Of a DNA stretch of 64,000 bases, positions 49,825 through 52,800 are shown piece after piece; within the stretch, counting starts at the first letter, position 1, and every line of letters starts with the position of its first letter. Made by a program: the position numbers. Where the stretch lies: NCBI RefSeq assembly GCF_058153355.1, contig NZ_CM177019.1; one strand, written 5' to 3'.

Positions 49825-52800
49825 TCATGAAGGGTGTTCATAGACACAATCATTTTAGCCCCATTACTGACAATAATGATAATTGATATTCTGGTTGTAT
49901 CGAAAATAAGTCTGAATTATCAGAAGGTTTATCATGAAAATACTCGTTGCAGGGGCGACAGGAAGCATTGGCCTTCATGTCGTGAATACCGCAATTAAAA
50001 TGGGCCATCAGCCCGTCGCGCTGGTCAGAAATAAACGCAAAGTAAAATTGCTTCCTCGTGAAACAGATGTTTTTTACGGCGATATTTCAATGCCGGAAAC
50101 ACTCACCGAATTACCGAAAGATATTGATGCCATCATCTTCACGCTCGGTTCTGATGTCCAGGGGCGTATTGGTGCCAGAGCGATCGATTACGGAGGAGTA
50201 CGTAATATTTTGCGAATATTCAAGGATACACCTGTCCATATCGCCCTGATGACCACGATTGGCGTGACTGAACGACTCAGCACCTGGAATCAACGTACTG
50301 AGGTTCATGACTGGAAAAGACGTGCCGAGCGTCTGGTCAGGGCAAGTGGTCATCCCTATACCATCGTCAGGCCCGGCTGGTTTGATTACAACAATGATAA
50401 TGAGCACAGAATCGTTATGCTTCAGGGAGACAGGCGTCATGCAGGAACACCGGAAGATGGTGTGATATCCCGGGGTCAAATCGCCCAGGTTCTGGTCAAT
50501 GCCCTGACCAACGATGAGGCAAAAAATAAAACGTTCGAGCTAGTGGCTGAGCGAGGCGAAGCACAGCAGGATCTTACCCCACTGTTTGCAGACCTGAAGA
50601 CTGATGATCCACAGAAAAATGATGGGGTTTTGGACATCGACAATATGTCTCTGCGTGAAGAACCTGAGTGCATTATCAAAGAGCTGAACCTGTATTCAAA
50701 AAATTAAACAATCTACAACCCTGACAATTTTGTCATATAGCAGTCAGCCTCATGACAGCTTAAGTCTGTATATTTGAATGTACAGAGGGGGATAGTTCCC
50801 CTGATACGAGCCCAGTTTCAAACACAAATTTTAAAAAAGGTATTAGATATGAAATCACTACTTATTACTTCATTGGTCATGGGATTTATTACAGTGAATA
50901 CCGCATCTGCCGCTCAGGAAATTAACCATGCAGATGGGAAAGAAAAGATCGGTGTAATATCAGCCAGCAATGCCTATACGCTTGATGATTTATCGAATGC
51001 GCTCTCTCGTAAGGCTGATGAGCAAGGAGCAACGTCGTTCAAAATTCTGTCAACCACGGGGAATAACCGGTTACACGGGGTTGCTGAAATATATAAGTAA
51101 ATCATTAGCATCCTGAGCAGGATGTGTCTCAGCCCTCTTATAGCGAGCGTCGTTCTATGTTTAGAACAGAAGACATCATCGACGAGATAACTCAATGGAT
51201 TGATTCAAACTTACATAAACCGATGAAGATAGAGGATGTTGCTGCGCGGGCAGGATACTCCAAGTGGCATCTTCAGCGGATTTTTGTACAGGTAAAAGAA
51301 GTTAGTCTTGGGAAGTACATAAGAGATACGAAACTTAGACTAGCAGCAAAAGATCTTATCGAGACTAATGAGCCAGTGATGGTTATCGCCTTTAAATATG
51401 GATTCGATTCACAACAAACTTTTACTCGGGTTTTCTCTAAAAAATATAAATTGCCACCATTGAAATATAGAAACGCGGAAAAGAGAAAAAAACATTAACA
51501 GTTCAAAGTTATCACCCTTACGTAACATAACCAGAATAATAATATATTCCAGCATCAAAAGTTGACGTTTTTTTGGTCTGGAAGCTTCTTGTTCGGAACA
51601 AAGCTCTGCCTGGTTTTTAACATACAATGTCTAGACCATGACCTTCAGCCATTACACATCAGCCAAAATATCGAACAGAACCAGATCGATATCCAATCAT
51701 TTCCCCCTCGTGGCAAGCCATTAACTTTTAGATATGTTATTTACTCTTGCAGTCGATTCATGGCACTCAGCAGACAAGCTACCTGAGATGAAGATCAGCT
51801 GCGAGTAAGGAGAAGACATAGACAGGAGGATGCTGATAATATTTCCCCATTGGATTACCGTTTCCAACAGGGGTATGAATGGAATACCAAACTTCATTGC
51901 AGAAAATATTGTCAGATGACCCTGTGAGAATGAAGATTCTCTATGCAGTCCAAGCACTGGAACTCAATGATAGCTGGATTGGGGCGGGATTCGTACGGAA
52001 CGCTGTTTGGGATCACTTTCATGAATATGGGCTAAGCCCTGTTTCTGGTGATGTCGATGTTGTCTGGTTTGACTGCGAATACTGTAACCCAGACCATGAT
52101 CGTTACCTTGAAGACACGCTTAGGCAACAACTACCTTCGTTTGACTGGTCGGTGAAGAATCAAGCCAGAATGCATCAACGTAATGGTGATTCTCCCTATA
52201 CGTCAACGACAAATGCTTTACTGCACTGGCCTGAAACAGCTACGGCTGTAGCTGTCAGATTGGGTAAGAACGGTCTCGATATCACTGCGCCTTATGGACT
52301 TTCTGACTTATTTGAACTGCGTTTACGACCAACTCCTGCATTTGAACGTGAAAAGTTGGGTACTTTTAAACAACGGGTCACTACGAAGCAATGGTTGGAA
52401 CGTTATCCCAGGTTACAACTCACCGTTTCCTTATAATCTAGATATACAAATATCCCGGTTCTTGCGGTTCGATTGTCTGATTGACCGTTCGCACCAGACA
52501 TGAAGTGTACGGACTGACTGGCTGAGCAGTAGGTTTGCTATGAGCGTGGAGCAGACGTTAGTCTGAATACTCGATGATATACTTCACCACAGAAATATCC
52601 ATTTTATAAGAACCGATACTTTAATTACTTCATAAATCAGCACATTCTAGATTTCCAAGTTTCTGAATTACAGAATCTGGATTCGCACAGGCATACTCCA
52701 TGACACTTAACCAAACGATTTTTTGTTTCGGGAATCCGTTGTGGTAAAACTGATACCTCAGGCCGGGGGCACAGATGAGAAGAGCAGGATCTCGTGCCAT

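What the first reader, a model, noticed from the sequence alone, without database searches (positions are those of the whole stretch)
50849..51498. Extra MarA/SoxS/RamA-type regulator, paired with a DUF1471 stress protein, as islet cargo
The 113-aa protein at 51157-51498 consists only of the two AraC HTH motifs. By eye it aligns along its length with MarA, SoxS and RamA, for example GYSKWHLQRIF and YGFDSQQTFTRVF. It follows an 83-aa secreted YhcN/BhsA-family protein. Sensor-less activators of this class switch on acrAB-tolC and other stress regulon members when overexpressed. A horizontally acquired fourth paralog could therefore alter intrinsic multidrug or oxidative-stress tolerance. I found no convincing marbox upstream.
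Basis: partly seen in the sequence, partly recalled or inferred. Interest (0 to 1): 0.5.

Follow-up and report, generated by a model that had tools for sequence, protein, structure and literature searches.

The report
RamA-like regulator behind a copper box
An Escherichia genomic island carries an intact, uncharacterised cousin of the multidrug-efflux activator RamA, co-oriented with a small BhsA-like envelope protein and preceded by an exact copy of the core of the copper/silver regulator CusR's binding site, so metal stress may switch on drug-tolerance genes in strains that carry it.

Summary
Window 50849-51100 encodes an 83-aa DUF1471/BhsA-like protein. Window 51157-51498 encodes a 113-aa protein made only of the two AraC helix-turn-helix motifs.

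The regulator is not RamA proper. It scores 156.8 bits against a RamA cutoff of 180 and is 56% identical to RamA. It belongs to a sister clade inside a RamA-like superclade (bootstrap 98.5%) that databases name only "HTH domain-containing". Identity is 47% to MarA, 44% to SoxS and Rob, and 42% to TetD.

The pair is the tail of a conserved six-gene module: two aldo-keto reductases, a LysR regulator, an SDR, the DUF1471 protein and the regulator. This module occurs in at least 12 enterobacterial genera and in 29 of 5,426 complete E. coli genomes, at three other sites in the three inspected. Here it sits in a tRNA-Thr island with a broken integrase.

In Klebsiella relatives the same pair is followed directly by an AcrAB-like pump.

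The regulator is under purifying selection (dN/dS 0.09), but it is inactivated in 5 of 19 species representatives.

No marbox lies upstream. Instead there is a 15/15 copy of the E. coli cusC CusR-box core, with the same spacing to a -10 element. An exact match to the copper-box pattern is kept in 21 related loci.

Function remains inferred.

The parts
46958..47851 (+). Aldo-keto reductase 1 (DkgA-like), the first gene of the conserved module. The conserved start is probably the ATG at 47000, giving 283 aa.
   Evidence: Pfam Aldo_ket_red 2e-50. NCBIfam DkgA 262 bits, below its cutoff. 94-97% aa identity in 18 related loci.
47878..48867 (+). Aldo-keto reductase 2 (329 aa).
   Evidence: dN/dS 0.05. 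The window holds a native paralogous AKR-AKR-LysR copy at 15103-17936 that is 87% nt identical.
48892..49824 (-). LysR-family regulator, divergent from the SDR gene. The conserved start gives 297 aa and ends at 49785.
   Evidence: Best NCBIfam match is YafC at 153 bits, below its cutoff. 97-99% aa identity across genera and dN/dS 0.03.
49934..50707 (+). NmrA-like/atypical SDR, NAD(P)H-binding (257 aa).
   Evidence: Pfam NAD_binding_10 1.4e-34. Conserved in the module. dN/dS 0.13.
50722..50736 (.). Copper-box core TGACAATTTTGTCAT, a predicted binding site for a CusR-family response regulator. It is centred about -52.5 from the predicted transcription start.
   Evidence: 15/15 identical to the core of the K-12 cusR-cusC CusR box. 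It is the only exact hit in the window, where 0.13 hits are expected at 1 mismatch or fewer. It occurs exactly once in 21 related loci, in those checked upstream of the DUF1471 gene. The CusR and pcoE box sequences are taken from bioRxiv 10.1101/2023.09.26.559466.
50742..50758 (.). Second dyad, AGTCAG-N5-TGACAG. Its first half-site lies 5 nt after the box, as TGTCAC does in the cusC promoter. It overlaps the -35 region.
   Evidence: The composite motif TGACA-N4-TGTCA-N7-GTCAG-N5-YGACAG-N10-TATANT occurs in 22 loci, including ones whose regulator is only 64-72% identical.
50769..50774 (+). Predicted -10 hexamer TATATT. No good -35 is present, so the promoter looks activator-dependent.
   Evidence: TATAnT is conserved at a fixed distance in 22 loci. 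The spacing to the box matches that of cusC, 21 versus 22 nt after the third half-site. The generic promoter scan did not call it, because that scan requires a -35.
50849..51100 (+). 83-aa secreted DUF1471 (BhsA/ComC-like) protein.
   Evidence: Pfam PF07338 2.5e-19. NCBIfam BhsA 78.7 bits against a cutoff of 90. dN/dS 0.11. It precedes the regulator in every relative from 59 to 95% identity.
51157..51498 (+). 113-aa RamA-like transcription activator that is not RamA. It has two HTH motifs and no sensor domain.
   Evidence: AlphaFold2 pLDDT is 92.6 with seven helices, and the top Foldseek hits are MarA, RamA, SoxS and Rob. dN/dS 0.09.
53293..54488 (-). P4-type tyrosine integrase split into two ORFs (53868-54488 N-terminal part, 53293-53715 C-terminal part). 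It is presumably inactive.
   Evidence: Pfam Arm-DNA-bind_3 and Phage_int_M on one ORF, Phage_integrase on the other. Intact 95-96% identical integrases lie 3-5 kb from the module in Kluyvera, Atlantibacter and Buttiauxella.
54651..54726 (-). tRNA-Thr(CGT) (thrW), the island's integration site next to proA.
   Evidence: ARAGORN. E. coli annotation of the flank.

Best explanation
The 113-aa protein is a functional, monomeric, sensor-less MarA-fold activator. It belongs to an uncharacterised sister clade of RamA.

It is the last gene of an old, horizontally shuffled six-gene module: AKR-AKR-LysR-SDR-DUF1471-regulator. This Escherichia strain acquired the module in a tRNA-Thr island.

The protein has no ligand domain, so its activity must be set by how much of it is made.

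The most likely route of expression is as follows. The DUF1471 gene and the regulator are transcribed together from an activator-dependent promoter at about 50781. That promoter carries an exact CusR-type copper box at about -52.5. Periplasmic Cu(I)/Ag(I), sensed by the host CusS-CusR system or by a related HprR-type system, would then induce both the BhsA/ComC-like envelope protein and the RamA-like protein. Read-through from the LysR-controlled SDR promoter is a possible second input.

The protein keeps every base-contacting residue of MarA and RamA. It should therefore bind marbox-type sites and recruit RNA polymerase at mar/sox/rob regulon promoters such as acrAB, tolC and micF, raising intrinsic multidrug and oxidative-stress tolerance.

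In Klebsiella versions the same transcript continues into an AcrAB-like pump that needs TolC. That gives a rationale for coupling a tolC-activating regulator to the cassette.

Shown here: gene identity, clade placement, synteny, purifying selection, conservation of the box, and its identity to the cusC box.

Inferred: co-transcription, CusR binding, marbox binding, and any phenotype.
For: Fold and family:
- Pfam hits to HTH_18 and HTH_AraC.
- Sequence search of the PDB gives RamA 5.9e-39, MarA 3e-29, Rob and SoxS about 1e-24.
- The AlphaFold2 model has pLDDT 92.6. Foldseek gives TM 0.83 and rmsd 1.4 A to the MarA-DNA complex 1bl0.
- The recognition helices YSKWHLQRIF and DSQQTFTRVF are conserved. 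W37, Q40, R41, S85, Q86, Q87 and R91 are invariant across MarA, SoxS, Rob, RamA, TetD and this clade.

Clade placement:
- The score is below all NCBIfam equivalog cutoffs; the best is ramA_TF at 156.8 against 180.
- NJ bootstrap support is 100% for RamA proper excluding this protein, and 98.5% for RamA plus the sister group.

Functional gene:
- dN/dS is 0.09 over 98 pairwise comparisons, with dS of about 0.7.

Operon:
- No terminator-like site lies between the SDR, DUF1471 and regulator genes.
- The DUF1471-regulator gap is 56 nt and has no stable conserved hairpin.
- DUF1471-regulator adjacency is kept from 59 to 95% identity.

Copper box:
- It is 15/15 identical to the cusC CusR-box core, with the same third half-site offset and the same distance to the -10.
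- It is unique in the window and conserved in 21-22 loci.
- CusR/HprR-like two-component systems are encoded beside the module in 9 loci.
- BhsA/ComC is a copper-related outer-membrane protein, and pcoE with the same box is CusRS-controlled (PMC7558416; bioRxiv 10.1101/2023.09.26.559466).

Precedent:
- A horizontally acquired RamA (RamAp) binds the acrAB and micF promoters. The same paper reports from earlier work (Hong et al. 2022) that it raises acrAB expression and resistance in E. coli (PMC13253676).

Pump link:
- In K. oxytoca, in K. pneumoniae-type contigs and on a K. quasipneumoniae plasmid, an AcrA-like and an AcrB-like gene start 15-25 nt after the regulator.
Against: - No expression or binding data exist for any member of this clade. 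I found no paper on it.
- No marbox occurs in the module's own promoters, so there is no internal positive control for marbox recognition.
- The generic sigma-70 scan did not call the promoter.
- The window's island encodes no CusR-like system, so host CusR/HprR must be assumed.
- The K. pneumoniae-type variant has the two-component system but no copper box.
- The regulator is frameshifted or truncated in 5 of 19 module-bearing species representatives while DUF1471 stays intact. It is therefore dispensable or costly in some hosts.
- The region is AT-rich at 41% GC and could be silenced in E. coli.
- The cusC transcription start was inferred from sequence, not looked up.
Confidence: 0.55

Rival explanations
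1. The protein is a dedicated local regulator. It controls only genes of its own cassette (AKRs, SDR, DUF1471 and, where present, the AcrAB-like pump) through a site that differs from the marbox. It would have little effect on the host mar/sox/rob regulon.
For: The regulator is tightly and anciently linked to the same neighbours across 59-95% identity. A 58% relative in Mangrovibacter again sits next to an NmrA-like SDR, DUF4405 and a flavodoxin. The pump lies directly downstream in Klebsiella.
Against: All residues that contact bases in MarA are identical, which argues for marbox-like specificity. No marbox-like site, nor any other conserved asymmetric 20-mer, was found in the module promoters. 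Where the pump is present it starts 15-25 nt after the regulator, so it is co-transcribed with it rather than regulated from a separate promoter.
Confidence: 0.2
2. The gene is silent or near-neutral cargo. In this host the AT-rich DUF1471-regulator segment is not expressed, for example through H-NS silencing or lack of the cognate activator. The gene then has no phenotype and is a passenger of an island that can no longer move.
For: GC is 41% against 52% in the flanks. The integrase is split. No att repeat was found. The module is rare in E. coli, at 29 of 5,426 complete genomes. The exact protein is found on only 5 contigs. The regulator is recurrently inactivated in other species.
Against: The ORF is intact here and under strong purifying selection across genera. 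The upstream element is identical to a site that the host's own CusR recognises.
Confidence: 0.2
3. The gene is an orphaned remnant of a pump operon. Its original job was tied to the AcrAB-like pump, the pump was deleted in the lineage that reached this island, and the regulator is on its way to decay.
For: Pump-bearing variants share the rest of the module at 88-99% aa identity. Among pump-less loci, homology breaks at codons 105-110 of the regulator. K. oxytoca shows a recombination breakpoint inside the gene, with about 97% nt identity to Kluyvera up to codon 45 and about 68% after it. Five of 19 representatives carry dead copies.
Against: No pump remnant is present in the window or in 20 pump-less loci. 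Fourteen of 19 representatives, spanning at least 12 genera, keep an intact gene with dN/dS 0.09 and dS up to 1.0 in its 3' half. That is far too much divergence for an unconstrained relic to stay open. The NJ tree does not resolve which arrangement is ancestral.
Confidence: 0.05

Closest known systems
RamA (Klebsiella, Salmonella, Enterobacter; PDB 7bef/7beg)
   Same: It is the closest characterised protein, at 56-58% identity over the full length. The size is the same (113 aa), the recognition helices are the same, and the predicted seven-helix fold is the same. Neither has a sensor domain.
   Different: The window protein falls outside the RamA clade (100% bootstrap) and below the NCBIfam RamA cutoff. 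The genomic context differs: true ramA sits after romA, with nfsB and yjbR nearby and no DUF1471 gene. No ramR-type repressor gene lies beside it here. Both proteins are reported from the same genera, and from K. pneumoniae under source-given names, so they appear to be paralogues.
MarA, SoxS and Rob of E. coli
   Same: Same family, fold and DNA-contact residues. The expected mode of action is a monomer on an asymmetric marbox with dose-dependent activation.
   Different: Identity is only 44-47%. The inputs differ: MarR derepression, SoxR oxidation and Rob ligand binding, against a predicted CusR-type box here. MarA is followed by the small periplasmic protein MarB; here an unrelated small secreted protein precedes the regulator. 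That parallel is a resemblance from memory, not a test.
RamAp, the plasmid-borne ramA driven by ISEcp1 (PMC13253676)
   Same: It is a horizontally acquired RamA-type activator in a host that already has MarA, SoxS and Rob. It is shown to bind the acrAB and micF promoters. The paper cites earlier work (Hong et al. 2022) that it raises acrAB expression and resistance in E. coli.
   Different: RamAp is true Klebsiella ramA, 57.9% identical to the window protein. It is driven constitutively by an IS promoter. The window gene is chromosomal, lies in an island, and has its own conserved regulated promoter. No member of the window's clade (above 60% identity) is on any of 72,556 plasmids.
RarA-OqxAB of Klebsiella pneumoniae
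   Same: The concept is the same: a small AraC-type activator encoded next to an RND pump, as in the Klebsiella variants of this module (from memory of Veleba et al. 2012; that paper was not available in the library).
   Different: The pump here is AcrAB-like, not OqxAB (AcrB model 1887 bits, OqxB model 854). No large K. pneumoniae cluster other than RamA appears among the 120 best homologues, all at 50% identity or more, so RarA is unlikely to belong to this clade. I could not retrieve a RarA sequence for a direct comparison.
CusR-dependent promoters (cusCFBA, pcoE)
   Same: The 15-bp palindromic core TGACAATTTTGTCAT is identical. A third GTCA half-site follows 5 nt later. The distance to a -10-like hexamer is the same within 1 nt.
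   Different: The A/T tracts that flank the chromosomal CusR box are absent here (ACCC...ATA). The cargo is not a metal exporter but an envelope protein plus a transcription factor. Binding was not tested.
BhsA/YcfR/ComC and other DUF1471 proteins
   Same: The 83-aa partner aligns end to end with BhsA (residues 5-83 against model positions 7-85 of 85) and has a signal peptide. ComC is copper-induced and affects outer-membrane copper permeability (PMC7558416).
   Different: It scores below the BhsA equivalog cutoff (78.7 against 90). In E. coli, comC is controlled by the TetR-type repressor ComR, not by a copper box.

Membership tests
MarA/SoxS/Rob/RamA subfamily of AraC/XylS activators | Two helix-turn-helix motifs (HTH_18/HTH_AraC) make up essentially the whole protein. 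| tested here: met
   Pfam HTH_18 covers residues 29-106 and HTH_AraC covers 15-55, in a protein of 113 aa.
MarA/SoxS/Rob/RamA subfamily of AraC/XylS activators | No ligand-binding or dimerisation domain; length about 105-130 aa. | tested here: met
   The protein is 113 aa and aligns end to end with RamA (113 aa), SoxS (107 aa) and MarA (127 aa).
MarA/SoxS/Rob/RamA subfamily of AraC/XylS activators | Seven-helix MarA fold. | tested here: met
   The AlphaFold2 model has pLDDT 92.6 and seven helices. Foldseek against the PDB gives 1xs9/1bl0 (MarA) at TM 0.83-0.84 and rmsd 1.4-1.5 A, followed by RamA, SoxS and Rob. This is a prediction, not a solved structure.
MarA/SoxS/Rob/RamA subfamily of AraC/XylS activators | Conservation of the residues that contact bases in the MarA-DNA complex. 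These are W42, Q45 and R46 in helix 3 and Q91, Q92, T93, T95 and R96 in helix 6 (positions recalled from Rhee et al. 1998). | tested here: met
   The equivalents W37, Q40, R41, Q86, Q87, T88, T90 and R91 are all present. Most are invariant in the nine-sequence alignment.
MarA/SoxS/Rob/RamA subfamily of AraC/XylS activators | Binds marbox DNA and activates mar/sox/rob regulon promoters. | not testable with these tools
   This needs EMSA, ChIP or expression data. The window holds no acrAB, tolC or micF promoter.
RamA proper (NCBIfam NF012144 equivalog) | Score at or above the curated cutoff of 180 bits. | tested here: not met
   156.8 bits.
RamA proper (NCBIfam NF012144 equivalog) | Groups inside the RamA clade in a phylogeny. 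| tested here: not met
   The RamA clade has 100% bootstrap support without it. It groups in a sister assemblage with 67.5% support, and the superclade has 98.5%.
RamA proper (NCBIfam NF012144 equivalog) | romA-ramA synteny (ramR is a further expected neighbour, from memory). | tested here: not met
   The K. pneumoniae ramA locus has romA immediately upstream and no DUF1471 gene. The window has DUF1471 upstream and no MBL-fold gene. No ramR gene was called in the one reference locus I fetched, so that part of the synteny was not verified.
RarA (regulator beside oqxAB) | Adjacent to the oqxAB genes. | tested here: not met
   There is no RND pump in the window. In the Klebsiella variants the adjacent pump is AcrAB-like, not OqxAB.
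RarA (regulator beside oqxAB) | Sequence orthology to K. pneumoniae RarA. | not tested
   I could not obtain a RarA sequence; the paper and the PMC record are not held. There is only indirect evidence: no RarA-sized K. pneumoniae cluster appears among the top 120 hits.
DUF1471 / YdgH-BhsA-McbA family (the partner protein) | A PF07338 domain preceded by a signal peptide. | tested here: met
   PF07338 scores 69.5 bits against a cutoff of 27. The N-terminus is hydrophobic with an ASA|AQ site, read from the sequence; no signal-peptide predictor was available.
BhsA equivalog (NF047859) | Score at or above 90 bits. | tested here: not met
   78.7 bits.
CusR-box (copper-box) promoters | The palindrome TGACAAnnTTGTCAT upstream of the promoter. 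| tested here: met
   An exact match lies at 50722-50736. It is identical, including the two free positions, to the K-12 cusC box core.
CusR-box (copper-box) promoters | Box positioned about five helical turns upstream of the transcription start, as at cusC. | tested here: inconclusive
   The distance from box centre to -10 centre is 42.5 nt here and 43.5 nt at cusC. Both -10 elements are my own reading of the sequence, not mapped starts.
CusR-box (copper-box) promoters | Bound by phospho-CusR and induced by Cu/Ag. | not testable with these tools
   Requires experiment.
tRNA-associated genomic island | Lies next to a tRNA gene, with a tyrosine integrase adjacent. | tested here: met
   tRNA-Thr is at 54651-54726 and the integrase at 53293-54488, although the integrase is split.
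tRNA-associated genomic island | Flanking direct repeat of the tRNA 3' end. | tested here: not met
   No repeat of 13 nt or more from 54600-54730 occurs elsewhere in the window. The island looks degraded and mosaic.
tRNA-associated genomic island | Variable presence among strains and atypical composition. | tested here: met
   29 of 5,426 complete E. coli genomes carry the module, none with this allele. In the three I inspected it lies at a tRNA-Sec (selC) island, near ydeP, and at a tRNA-Gly site. GC is 41%.

The most novel reading that the evidence does not exclude
The DUF1471 + RamA-like pair is a transferable circuit that links metal sensing to multidrug efflux. A CusR-type copper box would directly drive a RamA-class global efflux activator. 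In Klebsiella chromosomal islands, and in a module variant (without the box) on an IncFIB plasmid, an extra AcrAB-like pump is attached to the same pair. Copper or silver exposure alone would then switch on antibiotic tolerance in any enterobacterium that acquires the cassette. The regulator gene itself would serve as a recombination joint at which cargo, pump or no pump, is exchanged.
Probability: 0.3. Interest if true: 0.65.

Novelty: new member of a known kind. Interest (0 to 1): 0.5.

Why it matters
E. coli is usually said to lack ramA and to have three MarA-type activators. This window shows that some Escherichia strains carry a fourth one. It belongs to a clade that is widespread in Enterobacterales, is annotated only as "helix-turn-helix domain-containing protein", and was not found in the literature I could search.

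If its promoter really answers to CusR, three things follow:
- It would be a hard-wired route from copper or silver exposure (feed additives, wound dressings, antimicrobial surfaces, wastewater) to efflux-mediated multidrug tolerance. That is a co-selection mechanism that needs no mutation.
- The Klebsiella versions add an AcrAB-like pump to the same transcript. One copy sits on an IS26-flanked region of a clinical IncFIB plasmid. That would make it a further mobile RND system after OqxAB and TMexCD-TOprJ.
- Resistance-gene screens that rely on curated cutoffs would miss all of this.

Every step can be tested directly with standard reporter, EMSA and MIC experiments.

Tried and rejected
- **Marbox autoregulation.** The consensus scan found nothing with 2 or fewer mismatches in 46.8-51.9 kb. 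Hits across the whole window (15) are no more than chance predicts (17.7).
- **Attenuator or terminator hairpin between the DUF1471 gene and the regulator.** By eye it looked compensated. RNAalifold gave only -1.6 kcal/mol and one covarying pair, so I dropped it.
- **LexA-like palindrome CTGTATAT-N4-ATATACAG (50765-50784).** The spacing is wrong for LexA (CTGT-N12-ACAG), and it is conserved only in close relatives.
- **The module's LysR as the factor binding the double dyad upstream of DUF1471.** The shared CTGACAAT motif in both intergenic regions, and the Silvania locus where the SDR is deleted between them, suggested this. However, the dyad is also conserved in loci with no LysR nearby (L037/L038), and the first dyad turned out to be an exact CusR box. 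The idea is demoted, not excluded.
- **'Recent transfer' inferred from 98-99% identical LysR proteins.** This is wrong. dS is 0.3-0.7, so the similarity reflects constraint.
- **Pump remnants downstream of the regulator.** None in the window or in 20 pump-less loci.
- **Plasmid carriage of this clade.** None above 60% identity. The truncated, unannotated hits on E. coli plasmids are tetD fragments, not rarA.
- **The 1052-aa and 403-aa ORFs at 10.3-14.5 kb as an RND pump.** They are the two halves of fdeC.
- **Known RNA families in 49.7-53.3 kb.** None.
- **Defence-system models for the two genes downstream (NTP_transf_6 and orf119).** None.
- **att repeat of thrW.** Not found.
- **Retrieving RarA for a direct comparison.** Failed.
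- **The Leclercia 'RamA upstream of acrAB-like' paper.** It concerns true romA-linked RamA and a distant pump, not this clade.

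
Full report

Yes. The ORF list shows an 83-aa ORF at 50849-51100(+) and a 113-aa ORF at 51157-51498(+), with the quoted peptides present.

Pfam assigns the first to YdgH_BhsA-like/DUF1471 (2.5e-19). It assigns the second to HTH_18 (1e-19) and HTH_AraC, covering residues 15-106 of 113. The protein is therefore nothing but the two AraC helix-turn-helix motifs.

The longer reading from the GTG at 51124 is not conserved in frame in relatives. PGAP uses the same ATG in E. 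coli relatives.

**2. What kind of regulator is it?**

Against NCBIfam the best model is ramA_TF, at 156.8 bits against a curated cutoff of 180. RobA scores 126, SoxS 123 and MarA 112, all below their cutoffs.

Against PDB sequences the order is RamA 7bef (5.9e-39), MarA (3e-29), then Rob and SoxS (about 1e-24). Identities over the aligned core are:

| Reference | Identity |
|---|---|
| RamA | 56% |
| MarA | 47% |
| SoxS | 44% |
| Rob | 44% |
| TetD | 42% |

An AlphaFold2 model built on a 40-sequence alignment has pLDDT 92.6 and seven helices. Its best structural matches are the MarA-DNA complexes (TM 0.83-0.84, rmsd 1.4-1.5 A), then RamA, SoxS and Rob.

The recognition helices are conserved: YSKWHLQRIF and DSQQTFTRVF. 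The equivalents of the MarA base-contacting residues are all present (the residue list is recalled from the 1BL0 paper).

A search of 5.8 billion proteins found a compact clade at 70-95% identity in Klebsiella michiganensis, K. oxytoca, K. grimontii, Scandinavium, Enterobacter, Citrobacter, Raoultella and E. coli. Every member is named only "helix-turn-helix domain-containing protein". Proteins named RamA start at 55-63% identity.

In a neighbour-joining tree with 200 bootstraps, RamA proper is monophyletic (100%) and excludes the window protein. RamA plus the sister assemblage has 98.5% support. MarA, SoxS, Rob and TetD lie outside.

The protein is therefore a RamA-like paralogue, not RamA. 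Both types are reported from the same genera, and from K. pneumoniae under source-given names. No single genome was checked for carrying both.

**3. Genomic setting**

The window is Escherichia. The proA-proB-phoE genes and the ykg/rcl/ecp/pao genes match E. coli at 95.8-97.3%.

Between paoD and tRNA-Thr(CGT) (54651-54726) lies about 17 kb of oxidoreductases, hydrolases, an MFS transporter and LysR regulators. It ends with a P4-type integrase split into two ORFs.

GC falls to 41% over 50.5-53.5 kb. No att repeat was found. The island is mosaic, and no complete E. coli genome covers more than 46% of it.

The SDR-DUF1471-regulator segment occurs in 29 of 5,426 complete E. coli genomes, at 88-93% nt identity. 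I inspected three of them and found three other locations:
- a tRNA-Sec (selC) island, in AR Bank #0349; 21 further records carry the same allele, and most sit at similar coordinates;
- near ydeP;
- a tRNA-Gly site beside actS.

The exact protein is on only five contigs in the large assembly collection. 'Horizontally acquired islet cargo' is correct.

**4. The pair is the end of a conserved module**

A scan of one genome per species found 19 module-bearing representatives. They include Kluyvera, Huaxiibacter, Tatumella, Hafnia, Raoultella, Citrobacter, Enterobacter, Atlantibacter, Silvania, Buttiauxella, Kalamiella and Scandinavium.

tblastn shows the same order in 17 of the 19: AKR, AKR, LysR (opposite strand), NmrA-like SDR, DUF1471, regulator. 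This corresponds to window 46958-51498. The Silvania (L015) and Scandinavium (L022) loci gave no SDR match.

The window also holds a native E. coli paralogue of the first three genes at 15103-17936 (87% nt). That copy lacks the last three genes.

Pairwise Nei-Gojobori estimates give these dN/dS values:

| Gene | dN/dS |
|---|---|
| LysR | 0.03 |
| AKR2 | 0.05 |
| Regulator | 0.09 |
| DUF1471 | 0.11 |
| SDR | 0.13 |

dS is 0.3-0.7. The module is therefore old and constrained, not a recent sweep.

The regulator is nevertheless frameshifted or truncated in 5 of the 19 representatives, while DUF1471 stays intact.

**5. Link to an efflux pump**

Three more distant versions have DUF1471 and the regulator followed, after 15-25 nt, by a 390-aa AcrA-like adaptor and a 1043-aa AcrB-like permease:
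- K. oxytoca, where the regulator is 72% identical to the window's;
- K. pneumoniae-type contigs, at 59%;
- the K. quasipneumoniae IncFIB plasmid p13294-1NR, at 60%, with an IS26 copy on one side.

The permease scores 1887 bits on the AcrB model, below the cutoff of 2150. It scores only 854 on the OqxB model.

The window and the pump-less loci show no pump remnant.

K. oxytoca is a mosaic. It is about 97% nt identical to Kluyvera from the DUF1471 gene to about codon 45 of the regulator, just after the WHLQRIF helix. After that point identity drops to about 68%.

Among pump-less loci, homology to the window breaks at codons 105-110. The regulator gene is thus a recurrent recombination joint. 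Which state is ancestral is unresolved.

True ramA has a different context (romA-ramA, no DUF1471). A 58% relative in Mangrovibacter again neighbours an NmrA-like SDR, DUF4405 and a flavodoxin.

The plasmid paper that describes p13294-1NR does not mention this region.

**6. How is it controlled?**

There is no marbox. There is no terminator-like site between the SDR, DUF1471 and regulator genes. There is no convincing hairpin in the 56-nt DUF1471-regulator gap. No Rfam family matches.

Alignment of the SDR-DUF1471 spacer showed a block that stays conserved even where the rest cannot be aligned. The composite TGACA-N4-TGTCA-N7-GTCAG-N5-YGACAG-N10-TATANT occurs exactly once in 22 loci. In the loci whose gene maps I had, it lies 75-130 nt upstream of the DUF1471 start. 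These loci include ones whose regulator is only 64-72% identical.

The first dyad, TGACAATTTTGTCAT (50722-50736), is the copper box. E. coli CusR binds AAAATGACAAnnTTGTCATTTT, and the CusR-controlled pcoE promoter carries TGACAAnnTTGTCAT (bioRxiv 10.1101/2023.09.26.559466; PMC7558416).

I fetched the K-12 cusR-cusC spacer. Its box core is 15/15 identical to the window's, including the two free positions.

The surrounding geometry also matches:
- a third half-site follows 5 nt after the box (TGTCAC at cusC, AGTCAG here);
- a -10-like hexamer follows 22 nt later at cusC (TAAAGT) and 21 nt later here (TATATT).

The pattern has one exact hit in the window, where 0.13 hits are expected at 1 mismatch or fewer. 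It has one exact hit in each of 21 related loci.

CusR/HprR-like two-component systems (TIGR01387, 299 bits) are encoded beside the module in nine loci. None is in the window, where the host's own CusRS or HprRS would have to act.

One caveat is that the K. pneumoniae-type variant has the two-component system but no box.

The partner protein's closest named relative, BhsA/ComC, is itself a copper-responsive outer-membrane protein. This makes the wiring biologically coherent.

**7. Best explanation and rivals**

The best-supported reading has these steps:
- A copper/silver-responsive, and possibly oxidant-responsive, activator-dependent promoter drives a DUF1471-regulator transcript.
- Read-through from the LysR-controlled SDR promoter is a possible second input.
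- The sensor-less RamA-like protein then acts in proportion to its amount on marbox promoters of the host regulon.
- In Klebsiella the same transcript also delivers an AcrAB-like pump that depends on TolC.

The precedent is RamAp, a horizontally acquired RamA. It binds the acrAB and micF promoters, and earlier work cited in the same paper reports that it raises acrAB expression and resistance in E. coli (PMC13253676).

The rivals are a purely local regulator, silent cargo, and a decaying orphan of a pump operon. They are weighed in the rival-explanations section of this report. The orphan reading is disfavoured by dN/dS of 0.09 across at least 12 genera.

**8. Novelty**

The protein is a new, unnamed member of a well-known family. 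I found no paper on the clade, its DUF1471 pairing, the pump-linked variants or the copper box.

Membership in RamA proper was tested and is not met. Membership in the MarA/SoxS/Rob/RamA subfamily is met on every feature that sequence can test.

I could not compare RarA directly.

Noticed in passing
window 10289-14537 (-): The inverse-autotransporter adhesin gene fdeC is read as two overlapping ORFs here (1052 aa and 403 aa). It is a single 4254-nt gene in E. coli AF39. It is probably a frameshifted pseudogene in this strain.
   Followed up: partly
window 15103-17936: This is a native chromosomal AKR-AKR-LysR trio. It is 87% nt identical to the island copy at 46958-49824 (AKR proteins 95%, LysR 90%) but lacks the SDR, DUF1471 and regulator genes. 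The strain therefore carries two diverged copies of the same regulator/reductase set.
   Followed up: partly
window 9278-10168 (+): A Rob-type paralogue (YkgA-like): an N-terminal HTH_18/HTH_AraC region plus a C-terminal GyrI-like ligand domain. Its HTH region is 36% identical to the K. oxytoca homologue of the islet regulator. The window thus holds two MarA-superfamily genes.
   Followed up: partly
window 14752-14770 (-): The only marbox-consensus match with a single mismatch in the window (CTTGCACAAAAAGCTAAAT). It lies in the divergent fdeC / native-AKR promoter region. Overall hit numbers are at chance level.
   Followed up: no
window 45777-45792 (-): GACAGATAACCGACAG lies just upstream of the alpha/beta-hydrolase operon, in the spacer it shares with a divergent LysR gene. 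It resembles the GTCAGATAACCGTCAG part of the DUF1471 operator in L037. It may be a shared operator on the island.
   Followed up: no
window 51879-52989: An NTP_transf_6 (PF06042) gene and an unannotated 119-aa ORF sit between the regulator and the integrase in the low-GC stretch. There are no PADLOC hits, and no Pfam hit for the 119-aa ORF.
   Followed up: partly
L012 7911-8330 (Klebsiella sp. MISC125; same type as K. grimontii P0027): An IS3-family element is inserted at codon 4 of the regulator gene. This removes the rest of the module and creates a 139-aa fusion ORF. It could supply an outward promoter and alter the N-terminus, which is the Lon-degron region in MarA and SoxS (from memory).
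   Followed up: partly
L034 6693-7339 versus L003: There is a recombination breakpoint inside the regulator gene of K. oxytoca. Identity to Kluyvera is about 97% nt up to codon 45 and about 68% afterwards, where the pump-linked 3' half begins.
   Followed up: yes
L037 8299-9174 and L038 8319-9173: A class-A beta-lactamase gene (284-291 aa) lies about 1 kb downstream of a DUF1471-regulator pair (64% identical regulator) in an unidentified enterobacterial MAG.
   Followed up: no
L006 11368-11748: In Enterobacteriaceae bacterium G50, a 126-aa MarA-like gene sits 3 kb downstream of the module, after a nitroreductase and a DUF1993 gene. No marR is visible.
   Followed up: no
L028 4983-5387 (K. pneumoniae plasmid p_dm600b_NDM1): Another orphan MarA-family gene, 47% identical to the window protein. 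It is on an NDM-1 plasmid, flanked by heavy-metal P-type ATPases, cueR and a plasmid-borne lpxC.
   Followed up: no
L040 7395-13000: In one metagenomic enterobacterial contig the full module (72% identical regulator) lies next to rcnR-rcnA and then proA-proB-phoE, with no integrase between them. This is the same chromosomal neighbourhood as in the window, which suggests the thrW/proA region is a recurrent or ancestral home of the module.
   Followed up: no
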